64,000 nucleotides of DNA from Saccostrea cucullata (taxonomy: Eukaryota): positions 124,001 to 188,000 of the forward strand of contig NW_026932690.1 in the NCBI RefSeq assembly GCF_032062105.1. The letters are read 5' to 3'. This document shows, piece by piece, positions 21,001-24,000 of this stretch. The position numbers are program-made. Position 1 is the first letter of the stretch; the number at the start of each line of letters is the position of its first letter.

Positions 21001-24000
21001 TGGGAAGAAGCTGTAGATATTGAGCTGATTTTTTTTCACCTTCTATATTAATATTTTCACCTGTTTTGAATGTTAATTGATTCCTGACTTTGTATTGTTC
21101 TGTAGAATTTGTTTTTGGCTTTCCTAATTCAATTCTTTCAAAAAAATAACCGGTAATTTTTATCAATCGGTAAAATGAAAAAAAAAACGTTTAGACTTAC
21201 ATAAGTATGGAATGTGCATTAAAGTCCTTCACAGGAATATATTACGTAAAGAATCCGCAGGAAAAAATGAAAACACTCTGCGATATCACGTAAAGGGAAA
21301 AACGAACACTTGGAATGGTGCACGCGATGCGGAGTTATAATGAAATCAGCCCAGTCATAGAGTTCCCGGAGACTATTGACACGAACTGAACGTTCATTGC
21401 GTTCATGCCGATTAATTAATCTAGTATTAATCTGTTTTAATCAATAATCCCTGCAAAAACAACAAGATCAAATATTTCAAGGTGAAATTCAATCTCCCGC
21501 GGGTAATCCCCGCTTTATGGTATTTAGGTACGCTAACACTTGCCTAATGGTGTACTTCACGCCGTCATCCACAGAAATTTATAATTTAAGGTCTGCAGAA
21601 ATATGGAGATTGAAAAAAAATCATATAAGGCATCTTTTATTCATTTTATTAATTATGATAAGAATAGTGATATCATTTAGAACATTACTTCTCAGAAATT
21701 TGTTAATTATTGTTACGAATTTAATAAAAATCCGTTCATTCTTGGGAGCTGTCAAATCGTCATGTCAATGAAGCTTTTTTTTTCATGAAAACACTTGTCG
21801 ATTTGTAGTAGTGTAAGATACACGGCATCCTACTAGCTTGGGCGAGTGGGTTAACCCTTAACCTCAACTGGTAGAGCACTGGACTGGCAAGCTCTGGATT
21901 CAATCACGAGCAGAGGGAATAAAATGTCTCTGTTACATTTGGCGCCCACGTTGGGACCCGGGTGTTCTCTGGCGGGTGAAAGTGATTGGCCCCAGAACTT
22001 CGCCCCACAGGCGTCAGCACTCCAAAAGAGATGAGACCATAGCATTTTCTGGAAGGGGGCCAATATAGTAGTGTAAGAACGGCATCCTACTGGCTTGGTC
22101 TAGTGGGTTTACCCTTTAGCTCAATTGGTTGAGCACTGGACTGGCAAGCCAGGGGCCCGGGTTCAATCCACAGCAGAGTCAATAAAATGTCTCTGTTACA
22201 GATTTATCTACATGTAATTGTTGAGATGATAGGCATAAGCGATCTCTTCTTCTCATGTATCAGTCTATTGATACTTTTAGCTTCGTATGAATACCAAATA
22301 AGCCTGCTTTTATCAGGCGCCCAATAGATACCCATTGGAATTCCAACAGATTATTGGAAGACATGATCTCCAAAGCCAATATAGATATTTTCTGTCTAAA
22401 ACTCGAACATCTTAATAACAGCTTCAGAGTACTTGTTTGATGATTGTACAATATCAATCATAATGTTTTTAAATAAAACTTTGATAATTTTGCAAATGAC
22501 CAATGACAAAGTTAAGTTAACTTAACGAGTCGTGTTTTATTGAAAAAAAGCAGTTTTCTATGATGCTAAAGCATTGACTTTAATTTATCGTGGGGAATGG
22601 ATGTATAAAAGCTATGAAAGTCCCCTCATTAAATAAATGACACAAATATTATTTAATTTCAAAACTATTTACAGAAAATTAAAGTACAAGATATTTTTTT
22701 TCCGAAAATAAATCTGAAAAGTATTAAGATCAAAAGGATTAAAGAGGGAGAAAAATAGAAACACGTTGCCCAAAAGAAATATTAATCTGGTCTGATATTA
22801 TGATTATCACATTAACTTTGACTTAAACATTACTTTTTTAAGATTCCAATTCATTTTTATATATCTCACAAAGTCAGGTCGGTAAGATAGTTGGTGATGG
22901 TGGTGTGGAGATGTTTTATAACTAATTTTTACTCGTTTTTCAGGAGTCGATGTATTCATCAGGTATTTGTGTTTACGAGTTTTAAACCTGTAAAAGCCTT
23001 TCTAATCCTCTTTAGAGAACTATTTTCGTCTCTTCGTTTTCTATTTTCCGTGCAAGTCCACATTTATATCGCATTGCCATTAAACACGTTCAGTAATTAA
23101 TTAAAAGTCTTCGAATAATTGAACGAGAAAGTATTGACCCAATTATCGAACTACAAATCGTATACAGTATTACACAGGCATCTTTTACGTAAAGCTTGTT
23201 TGTCTTCATGTTTTCTGGACCAGACAATTAACATCCTTAACGATGTTCGATCCTGATATTTAAAGTCTTAAACTTTTTTTGCCAAGTATATTTTTAGTTT
23301 CTACATACATAGCTTAATTAAAATTCAGATCAAAAAATGGGGGTCAATACGCTTCTCTTGGTGCTACAGTACATTAATTATGACTTTCTTGCACTGAAAT
23401 TTGTGTCTTAATCAAAAATTAAATATTTGACGTTTTCCCTCCAATATTTTTATCCAATTAAAGCATGAAACAAAATGAACTCTCAGTTTGTTTAAAAAAA
23501 AGACACTTAAAAATTGTGCCTAAGAAAAAGTTTCAAATTGCTTCGCATAATCAATTATTTGACCTTTCTGCACTAATAAAACGTGATTTTTCTGGCATTG
23601 AAAATTTAATAAGCAAGAAAATTATTTCAAAGTCTTAAACGTTTTCTGATTTTAAGCAAATAGGTCAAATTTGTCTTGAATATTTAGAAAAGAACATCAA
23701 AAGTGGGGGTATATGATGTAAATTTTCAGATATTACTAAAAAAGTGTCATTTTTACGTTGGAATTGGCTCAATTTTTTCCCGGATTTTCAGATTATATTG
23801 ACTATATTTGTCACACTTTTTTGATAGAATTCTTAAGAAATAATTTAATAGATATTTCAGAACCAGCATAACACATTTCACTCAACAAAACAGCTTTGTG
23901 TGCAACCAGGATGGAAAAATAGGAATCCAAAATTAACAGTACTGTTTTAGTTCAAACTGGAAAAACTGATCATTTTCGTCTAAAAAACCTTCCGCCACAA

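What the first reader, a model, noticed from the sequence alone, without database searches (positions are those of the whole stretch)
21800..22204. Complete 397-bp LTR mini-retroelement whose LTRs contain a tRNA-like Pol III promoter
Seen: two ~135-bp LTRs, a PBS resembling the tRNA-Lys 3' complement (TGGCGCCC..), a polypurine tract, a 4-bp TSD (GATT), only ~126 bp of non-coding interior, A/B boxes in the LTRs and AATAAA near each LTR end. Known: plant Cassandra TRIMs carry 5S-derived LTRs, and tRNA-carrying TRIMs (Helenus, 4-bp TSD in animals) have been described only recently. Inference: a SINE/LTR hybrid parasite transcribed by Pol III and mobilised by a Gypsy-type partner. This particular family may be uncatalogued. 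It lies near the probable CNBD promoter.
Basis: partly seen in the sequence, partly recalled or inferred. Interest (0 to 1): 0.65.

Follow-up and report, generated by a model that had tools for sequence, protein, structure and literature searches.

The report
Old tRNA-bearing mini-retrotransposon in an oyster
This is a decayed 397-base copy of a published kind of miniature, protein-less retrotransposon (Helenus) whose end repeats carry a tRNA-like piece, sitting about 2 kb upstream of an oyster gene; it is ordinary for oysters.

Summary
Window 21804-22200 (+) is a 397-bp element: repeats of 134 and 137 nt around a 126-nt non-coding interior, a TGG-initiated site 2 nt after the left repeat, a 9-nt purine run 4 nt before the right repeat, and GATT on both flanks. 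The right repeat holds a tRNA-like module above Rfam's tRNA threshold, with box A and box B motifs. The left repeat's module has decayed and has neither.

Neighbouring exons are 100% identical to Saccostrea cucullata proteins. The host is therefore an oyster of the Ostreidae, a family in which Kojima (2024, PMC10886601) described Helenus: miniature LTR elements with tRNA-derived LTR sequence and 4-bp target duplications.

The copy meets every Helenus criterion I could test. It is old (LTR distance 0.116) and probably inert.

Pol III transcription, the tRNA-Lys primer, a Gypsy helper and the family assignment could not be tested. No eukaryotic genome collection, Repbase or paper supplements were available. 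An interior T4 run and the lack of any T-run in the LTRs sit uneasily with Pol III making the full-length RNA.

Known kind, known host family, low interest.

The parts
21800..21803 (+). Left copy of the 4-bp target-site duplication (GATT)
   Evidence: chance of a 4-bp flank match is 0.0057
21804..21937 (+). 5' LTR, 134 nt, TG...CA ends
21853..21918 (+). Decayed tRNA-like module of the 5' LTR. It is homologous to 22110-22181 and 6 nt shorter. It has no Rfam tRNA match and neither box motif.
   Evidence: Alignments
21938..22063 (+). Non-coding interior, 126 nt
   Evidence: The only open frame of 75 aa or more over the element (21854-22099, minus strand) has no Pfam family and scores as not protein-like in the Atlas.
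21940..21957 (+). Putative primer-binding site. It starts with TGG 2 nt after the 5' LTR. Its extent and tRNA partner were not determined.
   Evidence: All 7 invariant columns in the alignment with five library relatives fall within 21929-21982.
22045..22048 (+). The only run of four T on the element's sense strand. It lies in the interior, upstream of the purine run, and is a possible Pol III stop.
22051..22059 (+). Polypurine tract candidate, 9 nt, ending 4 nt before the 3' LTR
22064..22200 (+). 3' LTR, 137 nt, ends CA
22110..22181 (+). tRNA-like module of the 3' LTR (Rfam RF00005, 30.2 bits, threshold 29). The acceptor and T stems are mismatched, so it is not a working tRNA.
   Evidence: ARAGORN finds none; no cloverleaf and z about -0.15
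22117..22128 (+). Box A-like motif (TRGCY...YGG as worded in PMC10886601)
22160..22164 (+). Box B core (GGTTC)
21918..21923 (+). AATAAA, 14 nt before the end of the 5' LTR
22181..22186 (+). AATAAA, 14 nt before the end of the 3' LTR
22201..22204 (+). Right copy of the target-site duplication (GATT)
9110..19755 (-). Neighbour: coding exons of a cyclic-nucleotide-binding-domain gene. The first coding exon is 19609-19755. The element lies 2049 bp upstream of it and antisense to it.
   Evidence: Pfam cNMP_binding on 15713-16045; 100% identity to the S. cucullata LOC134235786 protein; exon-by-exon tblastn
28053..31724 (-). Neighbour: coding exons of an alpha/beta-hydrolase gene. Its last coding exon ends 5.85 kb from the element.
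   Evidence: 100% identity to the S. cucullata LOC134235787 protein; tblastn

Best explanation
The element is one old, probably inert genomic copy of a Helenus-type element. Helenus is a terminal-repeat retrotransposon in miniature (TRIM) whose LTRs embed a tRNA-derived module. The copy sits in the intergenic DNA of an oyster, Saccostrea cucullata or a near-identical genome.

How the family works, with the basis for each step:
1. The LTR is built of a 46-49-nt leader, a roughly 72-nt tRNA-derived module with box A and box B, and a 19-nt tail ending CA. This is shown by the sequence.
2. In a source copy, the module in the 5' LTR is thought to recruit TFIIIC and Pol III. RNA would then start near the module's first base and run through the rest of the LTR, the primer site, the interior, the purine tract and into the 3' LTR. 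This is inferred by analogy with Cassandra and from the box conservation reported by Kojima. It is not shown here.
3. A host tRNA anneals to the TGG-initiated site 2 nt after the 5' LTR and primes minus-strand DNA. Strand transfer uses the part of the LTR repeated at both RNA ends, and the purine tract primes the plus strand. This is the established LTR-retrotransposon mechanism. Reverse transcriptase, RNase H and integrase must come in trans from an autonomous element, because the 126-nt interior encodes nothing.
4. The helper's integrase makes the 4-bp duplication (GATT, observed). This length is typical of animal Helenus, which Kojima links to Gypsy elements.

This particular copy:
- Its LTRs have diverged by 0.116 substitutions per site.
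- Its 5' LTR has lost both promoter-box motifs.
- It has a T4 run before the purine tract.
It is therefore unlikely to be a source of new copies. The 3' LTR still carries a promoter-like module that could at most give a short read-out transcript into the flank.
For: - Architecture at the exact coordinates.
- The three hallmarks have chance probabilities of 0.0057 (TSD), 0.016 (purine run) and 0.05 (TGG), on top of a 134/137-nt repeat pair.
- tRNA module: Rfam 30.2 bits against a threshold of 29, with the full model matched (1-71). Box motifs are present in the right LTR.
- No coding capacity.
- Host: two neighbouring genes are 100% identical to S. cucullata proteins with adjacent LOC numbers. 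Exons were mapped.
- Published definition and range of Helenus (PMC10886601; I read the abstract, Introduction, Methods, Results, Discussion, figure legends and tables):
  - 4-bp TSD in animals
  - length 311-1263 bp
  - 51 families in pteriomorph bivalves, including Ostreidae (Crassostrea gigas, C. virginica, Saccostrea glomerata)
  - bivalve primers Lys, His, Ile, Pro, Glu and Ser
  - PBS likeness to Gypsy only
- Relatives exist elsewhere. The minus-strand open frame over the element finds 7 of 1.84 billion library representatives at E up to 0.001.
  - Five are short (80-141 aa), have no Pfam family, and match interior plus LTR in one frame and the other LTR in another frame.
  - Two of the five carry an internal repeat at an offset of 84 and 88 aa, that is 252 and 264 nt, reached by 0 and 4 of 200 shuffles. 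This equals the 257-263-nt LTR spacing here.
  - All 7 invariant alignment columns lie over the LTR end, the primer site and the adjacent interior.
Against: - Only one copy could be examined, so family properties are not separated from this copy's decay.
- The left LTR fails the tRNA model and both box motifs.
- No run of four or more T lies in either LTR, and the only one in the element lies in the interior before the purine run. Pol III would therefore have no visible stop in the 3' LTR and a possible stop too early.
- AATAAA 14 nt before each LTR end would fit a Pol II, polyadenylated RNA instead.
- The purine run is 4 nt away from the LTR.
- The right LTR does not start with TG.
- tRNA complementarity of the primer site was not tested.
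- No helper element is in the window (0 of 93 open frames with RT, IN, gag or PR).
- Two of the 7 library hits are real repeat proteins (WD40/nSTAND; an adhesive domain) and are chance likenesses.
Confidence: 0.8

Rival explanations
1. The anatomy is the same (a TRIM), but the tRNA-like module is only a captured SINE or tRNA fragment. The template RNA is made by Pol II or by read-through from outside, ending at a poly(A) site set by the AATAAA near the LTR end.
For: - AATAAA lies 14 nt before both LTR ends.
- There is no T-run terminator in the LTRs, and there is a T4 run in the interior.
- The 5' LTR lacks both boxes.
- Kojima states that Pol III use by Helenus has not been validated experimentally.
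Against: - Both LTRs were identical at insertion, so AATAAA being shared by them says nothing about selection.
- A poly(A) site that close to the LTR end would leave almost no U5.
- No TATA-like motif is present in either LTR (weak evidence).
- Kojima reports box A and box B conservation across Helenus families.
- The loss of the boxes in the 5' LTR can be decay of an old copy.
Confidence: 0.25
2. Two independent insertions of one tRNA-derived SINE, about 260 bp apart, that only look like LTRs.
For: Each repeat holds a tRNA-like stretch. tRNA-derived SINEs are abundant in bivalves, including Saccostrea (PMC11481361; passages found).
Against: - The repeats share 46-49 nt upstream of the tRNA-like start, whereas a SINE starts at its tRNA head (SINE anatomy as).
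- There is no body, tail, A-rich end or simple-repeat end. Each repeat ends 19 nt after the module.
- No duplication flanks each repeat on its own, while one 4-bp duplication brackets the pair.
- TGG and the purine run sit at the inner edges.
- Library relatives keep the LTR-interior junction and the same roughly 252-264-nt period.
Confidence: 0.03
3. A local tandem duplication (1.5 units of about 260 bp) of a segment containing a tRNA pseudogene, with no retrotransposition involved. Alternatively, the remnant of a tandem array.
For: Any 1.5-unit tandem repeat reads as A-B-A. TRIMs and Cassandra are known to form LTR-interior arrays.
Against: - In a tandem repeat, the bases outside the two A units should continue the unit. 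They do not: 0 of 4 bases match on the left side. Instead they match each other (GATT/GATT).
- TG...CA ends, TGG and the purine run at the inner borders are not expected from slippage.
- No third unit lies nearby.
Confidence: 0.04
4. A pair of working tRNA genes.
For: The Rfam tRNA model is just above its threshold in the right repeat.
Against: - ARAGORN finds 0 tRNAs in the window.
- The cmscan alignment shows several non-standard pairs in the acceptor and T stems.
- The minimum-energy fold is not a cloverleaf, and 86 of 200 shuffles fold as well.
- The left repeat gives no match at all.
Confidence: 0.01

Closest known systems
Helenus (TRIM with tRNA-derived sequence in its LTRs; 'TRIMp3'), Kojima 2024, PMC10886601
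   Same: - Two short LTRs with a tRNA-like module carrying box A and box B motifs
- A TGG-initiated primer site and a purine tract at the ends of a short non-coding interior
- A 4-bp target duplication, as in animal Helenus
- A length of 397 bp, inside the published 311-1263 bp range
- A host in the Ostreidae, a family listed as carrying Helenus (the genus Saccostrea is listed through S. glomerata)
- A tRNA-like part that does not look like a working tRNA
   Different: - S. cucullata itself is not in the paper's Table 1.
- Similarity to any named Helenus family could not be tested.
- This copy's 5' LTR has lost the box motifs.
- The purine run is 4 nt off the LTR.
- There is a T4 run in the interior.
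Cassandra (plant TRIM with 5S rRNA-derived LTR sequence) and Ajax (nemertean)
   Same: The design principle is the same: a small-RNA gene fragment with an internal Pol III promoter inside the LTRs of a miniature LTR element.
   Different: - The module is 5S-derived, not tRNA-derived. No 5S match occurs anywhere in the window.
- Cassandra carries a conserved Pol III terminator in the LTR that defines an 18-bp terminal RNA repeat. No T-run is present in these LTRs.
- Ajax makes 5-bp duplications.
biv-TRIM (Satovic et al. 2019, PMC6934838)
   Same: It is a miniature LTR element of bivalves, reported also from oysters. It is non-coding and has a purine tract.
   Different: - biv-TRIM has 202-218-bp repeats and a 77-80-bp interior, with no canonical primer site.
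- Its conserved 14-nt interior motif is absent from this element. The 3 matches at up to 3 mismatches in the window all lie elsewhere and are fewer than chance expects (4.8).
- No tRNA-like module is reported for it.
tRNA-derived SINEs (SINE2) of bivalves
   Same: They have a tRNA-derived module with box A and box B, and they are non-autonomous. Kojima proposes a SINE inserted into an LTR as the origin of Helenus.
   Different: SINEs start at the tRNA head, carry a LINE-derived tail and move by target-primed reverse transcription. This element has LTRs, a primer site, a purine tract and an integrase-type 4-bp duplication.

Membership tests
TRIM (terminal-repeat retrotransposon in miniature) | Shorter than 1000 bp and encoding no protein for mobilisation | tested here: met
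   The element is 397 bp. The only open frame of 75 aa or more over it has no Pfam family and a non-protein-like Atlas recognition score of 1222.
TRIM (terminal-repeat retrotransposon in miniature) | Two direct terminal repeats (LTRs) | tested here: met
   The repeats are 134 and 137 nt, with 116 of 130 ungapped columns identical.
TRIM (terminal-repeat retrotransposon in miniature) | Primer-binding site just downstream of the 5' LTR, complementary to a tRNA | tested here: inconclusive
   TGG starts 2 nt after the LTR, and this stretch is the best-conserved block among library relatives. Complementarity to a host tRNA could not be tested: the window has 0 tRNA genes and no host tRNA set was available.
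TRIM (terminal-repeat retrotransposon in miniature) | Polypurine tract at the 3' end of the interior | tested here: met
   A 9-nt purine run lies at 22051-22059. It ends 4 nt before the LTR rather than abutting it. The chance of such a run at that distance is 0.016.
TRIM (terminal-repeat retrotransposon in miniature) | Target-site duplication flanking the whole element | tested here: met
   GATT is present on both sides; chance 0.0057.
Helenus | tRNA-derived sequence inside the LTRs | tested here: met
   The right LTR scores 30.2 bits on Rfam tRNA, against a threshold of 29. The left LTR holds the homologous but decayed stretch and gives no match.
Helenus | Box A (TRGCY, YGG) and box B (GGTTC) motifs in the tRNA-like part | tested here: met
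   The motifs are met in the right LTR (22117-22128; 22160-22164) and not met at the homologous sites of the left LTR. The motif wording is from the paper.
Helenus | 4-bp target duplication (animal Helenus) | tested here: met
   the criterion is.
Helenus | Length within 311-1263 bp | tested here: met
   397 bp; the range is.
Helenus | Host within the reported range (pteriomorph bivalves, including Ostreidae) | tested here: met
   Flanking genes are 100% identical to Saccostrea cucullata proteins. Table 1 lists Saccostrea glomerata, Crassostrea gigas and C. virginica, but not S. cucullata.
Helenus | Sequence similarity to a named Helenus consensus (Repbase; Table S1 of the paper) | not testable with these tools
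   Repbase is not available and paper supplements are closed.
Helenus | Primer site shared with an autonomous Gypsy element of the same genome | not testable with these tools
   No RT, IN, gag or PR domain was found in 93 open frames of the window. There was no access to the rest of the genome or to Figure S2C of the paper.
Helenus | Transcription from the tRNA-like module by RNA polymerase III | not testable with these tools
   No expression or occupancy data were available. The author also marks this as unvalidated for Helenus. The sequence gives mixed signals.
tRNA-derived SINE (SINE2) | The tRNA head forms the 5' end of the repeat unit | tested here: not met
   46-49 nt of shared sequence precede the module in both repeats.
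tRNA-derived SINE (SINE2) | LINE-derived, A-rich or simple-repeat tail, and a target duplication around each unit | tested here: not met
   Each repeat ends CA 19 nt after the module. There is no tail, and no duplication flanks a single repeat.
biv-TRIM | 202-218-bp repeats, a 77-80-bp interior and a conserved 14-nt interior motif | tested here: not met
   The sizes here are 134/137 and 126 nt. The motif is not in the element.
Cassandra / Ajax | 5S rRNA-derived sequence in the LTRs | tested here: not met
   There is no 5S rRNA match in the window, either at gathering thresholds or at E up to 1.
Functional tRNA gene | Cloverleaf with paired acceptor and T stems, recognised by a tRNA finder | tested here: not met
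   ARAGORN finds 0 genes. The cmscan alignment shows mismatched stems. The minimum-energy fold is not a cloverleaf and z is about -0.15.

The most novel reading that the evidence does not exclude
The copy represents a Helenus lineage of Saccostrea cucullata that is not among the 51 catalogued bivalve families. Its LTR design (no T-run terminator, AATAAA 14 nt before the LTR end) would reflect a family-wide hybrid mode of expression. In that mode, the tRNA-like module sets the start while the 3' end is made by a poly(A)-type signal or by read-through, rather than by Pol III termination as in Cassandra.

A weaker side reading concerns the surviving promoter-like module of the 3' LTR. It lies between two same-strand genes and 2 kb upstream of the CNBD gene, and it might still bind TFIIIC and act on the neighbourhood.
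Probability: 0.1. Interest if true: 0.45.

Novelty: new member of a known kind. Interest (0 to 1): 0.2.

Why it matters
The value is mostly for annotation. Elements of this kind scatter tRNA-like pseudo-genes and Pol III promoter-like boxes through oyster genomes. They can inflate tRNA gene counts, and repeat maskers can misfile them as SINEs.

This copy adds Saccostrea cucullata to the hosts of Helenus, if the host assignment holds.

It also gives a concrete case for an open point that the Helenus paper itself raises: whether, and how, a Pol III promoter can produce an RNA with the terminal redundancy that LTR-type reverse transcription needs. As a single decayed copy it cannot settle that point.

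Tried and rejected
1. Other copies in the window. blastn at word size 7 and two motif scans found only the two repeats themselves.

2. Copies in the only open contig collection (genome contigs, prokaryotes). One scan with a 19-nt stretch shared by both repeats gave 6 MAG loci. About 4 chance hits are expected for a 19-mer in that much sequence; this is my estimate, not a tool result. All 6 match over only 19-25 nt around the seed, so I treat them as chance.

3. Primer-site isotype from the literature. A full-text search for the first 9 nt of the site returned 159 papers. The 25 listed were cloning primers or unrelated work, and I opened none. This led nowhere.

4. Host taxon from the RING/B-box open frame. 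The Atlas gave only 'Mollusca commonest'. The homology search gave only unnamed records and one JGI product name with no organism. The CNBD and hydrolase exons then gave named oyster proteins.

5. A helper element in the window. Pfam on 93 stop-to-stop frames of 75 aa or more found no retroelement domain.

6. A structured RNA. Folds of both tRNA-like modules and of the interior are no better than shuffles (z from -0.15 to -0.21).

7. Relation of the LTR module to the other tRNA-like element at 55222-55450. Only generic tRNA positions are shared: 16 invariant columns of 89.

I did not pursue the question by other means. The second Atlas call on the same frame found nothing usable.

9. One search failed on a term that was too short. 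I corrected it and repeated it.

10. The biv-TRIM, Cassandra/Ajax, SINE and working-tRNA readings were each tested and rejected (see Membership tests).
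Full report
**What is there.** Reading 21500-22500 and running the repeat finder show two direct repeats, at 21804-21937 and 22064-22200, separated by 126 nt.
- They align with 116 identical positions out of 130 ungapped columns, 14 substitutions (6 transitions, 8 transversions) and 4 indel blocks. The K2P distance is 0.116. blastn gives 81.9% over 138 columns with gaps, and MAFFT with flanks is.
- The left repeat begins TG and ends CA. 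The right one ends CA, but its first dinucleotide departs from TG.
- GATT precedes the left repeat and follows the right one.
- TGG starts 2 nt after the left repeat.
- A 9-nt purine run (22051-22059) ends 4 nt before the right repeat.
- From the window's own composition, the chances are 0.0057 for the flank match, 0.016 for such a purine run at that distance and 0.05 for the TGG. The LTR-element reading therefore does not rest on the repeat alone.
- No other copy of repeat or interior lies in the 64 kb.

**The tRNA-like part.**
- Rfam's tRNA model matches 22110-22181 (+) end to end at 30.2 bits, against a threshold of 29. E is 0.028 for the whole window against all families.
- ARAGORN calls no tRNA in the window.
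- The cmscan alignment shows non-standard pairs in the acceptor and T stems.
- The minimum-energy fold is not a cloverleaf, and 86 of 200 shuffles fold as well.
- It is therefore tRNA-derived, not a working tRNA.
- With the motif wording of the Helenus paper (TRGCY and YGG for box A, GGTTC for box B), the right repeat has both (22117-22128 and 22160-22164).
- The homologous stretch of the left repeat (21853-21918, 6 nt shorter) has neither, and it gives no tRNA match even at E up to 10.
- Each repeat thus consists of a 46-49-nt leader, the module, and a 19-nt tail that contains AATAAA 14 nt before the repeat's end.

**Coding capacity and helper.** Pfam on all 93 stop-to-stop frames of 75 aa or more in the window found no reverse transcriptase, integrase, gag or protease. 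The one such frame over the element (21854-22099, minus strand) has no family and an Atlas recognition score of 1222, below the level that most real proteins reach. The element is non-autonomous, and its helper is not in the window.

**Host and setting.**
- A cNMP-binding exon (15713-16045, minus strand) is 100% identical to 'uncharacterized protein LOC134235786 isoform X1 [Saccostrea cucullata]', and 94% identical to the Ostrea edulis homologue.
- A hydrolase exon (31146-31727, minus strand) is 100% identical to LOC134235787 of the same species, and 88% identical to that of S. echinata.
- The window is therefore S. cucullata or a near-identical oyster genome.
- I located the exons one at a time by tblastn of these two database proteins.
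- The CNBD gene's coding exons run from 19755 down to 9110. The hydrolase gene's run from 31724 down to 28053.
- The element lies in the 8.3-kb stretch between them, 2049 bp upstream of the CNBD start codon and on the opposite strand.
- Whether that is promoter, 5' UTR intron or neither is not known.
- The N run at 18-163 was left alone.

**Comparison with what is published.** Kojima 2024 (PMC10886601; I read the abstract, Introduction, Methods, Results, Discussion, legends and tables; the supplements were closed) defines Helenus as TRIMs with a tRNA-derived sequence in their LTRs, with a PBS and a PPT. The paper reports the following:
- animal families make 4-bp duplications;
- lengths are 311-1263 bp;
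- 51 families occur in pteriomorph bivalves, including Ostreidae (C. gigas, C. virginica, S. glomerata);
- bivalve families use tRNA-Lys, His, Ile, Pro, Glu or Ser as primers;
- their primer sites resemble only those of Gypsy elements;
- most tRNA-like parts are not functional tRNAs;
- Pol III use has not been validated.

This copy meets every one of those criteria that I could test (see Membership tests). S. cucullata itself is not in the paper's Table 1.

Two searches bear on whether anything newer is in print.
- A search for Helenus or TRIMp3 from 2024 onward found 24 papers holding either term, of which 20 were listed. Among those listed, Kojima 2024 was the only primary study of the elements. 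Three others cite it: a sugar-beet paper and an rDNA review, seen only as search listings, and a meeting report, of which I read the citing passage. The remaining listed papers use the word in other senses, such as butterfly names.
- A search for S. cucullata with 'genome assembly' and 'LTR' found 2 unrelated papers.

The other known kinds do not fit.
- biv-TRIM (PMC6934838; abstract and part 1 of 2 of the Results read) has 202-218-bp repeats, a 77-80-bp interior and no canonical primer site. Its conserved 14-nt motif is not in this element.
- Cassandra and Ajax carry 5S-derived modules. The window has no 5S match.

**Evidence from elsewhere that this is a family with the same layout.** No eukaryotic genome collection was open, so I used the translated minus-strand frame over the element as a probe against 1.84 billion protein representatives. 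Seven proteins reached E up to 0.001.
- Two long ones are real repeat proteins (nSTAND plus WD40; an adhesive domain) and are chance likenesses.
- Five short ones (80-141 aa) have no Pfam family.
- Each of the five matches interior plus left LTR in one frame and the right LTR in another frame. That is what DNA-level relatives of a non-coding repeat would give.
- Two of the five carry an internal repeat at an offset of 84 and 88 aa (252 and 264 nt). This was reached by 0 and 4 of 200 shuffles. The other three showed none, with 36, 124 and 184 of 200 shuffles reaching the score.
- That period equals the 257-263-nt spacing of the repeats here.
- In the alignment of the window frame with the five, all 7 invariant columns fall within 21929-21982, that is the end of the LTR, the primer site and the adjacent interior.

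**Mechanism, and what does not fit.** The best reading is the Helenus/TRIMp3 scheme given under Best explanation. Shown here are the anatomy and the integrase-type duplication. Inferred are Pol III initiation, tRNA priming, and trans-supply of enzymes by a Gypsy-type element.

Three things do not fit the Pol III step.
- Neither LTR has a run of four or more T on the sense strand. Cassandra's LTR, by contrast, carries a conserved terminator that defines the terminal redundancy of its RNA.
- The only T4 run in the element lies at 22045-22048, before the purine run. The next one is 75 nt beyond the element.
- AATAAA lies close to each LTR end.

With a single copy I cannot say which of these are family traits. 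The Pol II/read-through variant therefore keeps a confidence of about 0.25.

This copy is in any case old. At assumed neutral rates of 1-5 x 10^-9 per site per year, the LTR distance of 0.116 corresponds to roughly 12-58 million years. The rates are my assumption, not a tool result. Its 5' LTR has also lost both box motifs, so it is most likely inert.

**What stayed unchecked.**
- Genome-wide copy number, solo LTRs and arrays
- Identity to Repbase families and to the paper's supplementary consensus sequences and primer-site figure
- Complementarity of the primer site to host tRNAs
- The helper element
- Any expression or occupancy data

**Verdict.** This is a real, well-formed but decayed Helenus-type TRIM in an oyster. 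It is of a kind and in a host family already described, so the interest is low.

Noticed in passing
window 55222-55460 (+): A second tRNA-like element. It has a D-arm/box A-like and T-arm/box B-like stretch at about 55226-55300, and an Rfam tRNA match below threshold at 55372-55443 (24.6 bits against 29). Its two ends are complementary to each other, and it ends in a run of 11 T. It looks like a tRNA-derived SINE or a composite tRNA-like unit. It shares only generic tRNA positions with the LTR module.
   Followed up: partly
window 55921-56810: Three tandem units of about 319-330 bp (92-100% identical), rich in T and C runs. This is a satellite-like array of unknown nature.
   Followed up: no
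window 12715-14323: About ten tandem units of 155-156 bp. They lie between the CNBD coding exons mapped at 12267 and 15716, that is inside an intron of that gene.
   Followed up: no
window 46333-48200: Long minisatellite arrays with a 32-bp period, with a 68-bp variant.
   Followed up: no
window 60583-61372: An A-rich minisatellite with a 20-22-bp (41-42-bp) period, in 29 or more units.
   Followed up: no
window 62128-63103: Repeats of 146 bp with a shared 65-nt core in 7 copies. They overlap open frames of 117-147 aa that have no convincing Pfam family.
   Followed up: no
window 40368-40526 (both strands): A long hairpin that matches several plant and animal miRNA-precursor models on both strands, far below their thresholds (for example 52.5 bits against 139.7). 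This pattern is typical of a palindromic, MITE-like repeat rather than a miRNA gene.
   Followed up: no
window 6278-6449, 15442-15613, 54529-54586: A dispersed repeat with three copies at 74-78% identity (families D10 and D13). One copy lies just beside the cNMP-binding exon.
   Followed up: no
window 32354-33310 (+): An intronless-looking open frame with RING and B-box zinc fingers (tripartite-motif-like protein). The nearest database relative is 87% identical and unnamed. The Atlas neighbours are mostly molluscan.
   Followed up: partly
window 21985-21993 and 22056-22064: A perfect 9-nt inverted repeat inside the element's interior. Its right arm overlaps the end of the purine run and the first base of the 3' LTR. 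By my rough estimate the chance expectation is about 0.04 in 141 nt. The whole-interior fold is no better than shuffles.
   Followed up: partly
window 10130-10333 (-): One stretch of the CNBD gene is only 63% identical to the S. cucullata isoform X1 protein, while the other exons are 85-100% identical. It may be an alternative exon or an isoform difference.
   Followed up: no
window 18-163: A run of N. It was left as it is.
   Followed up: no
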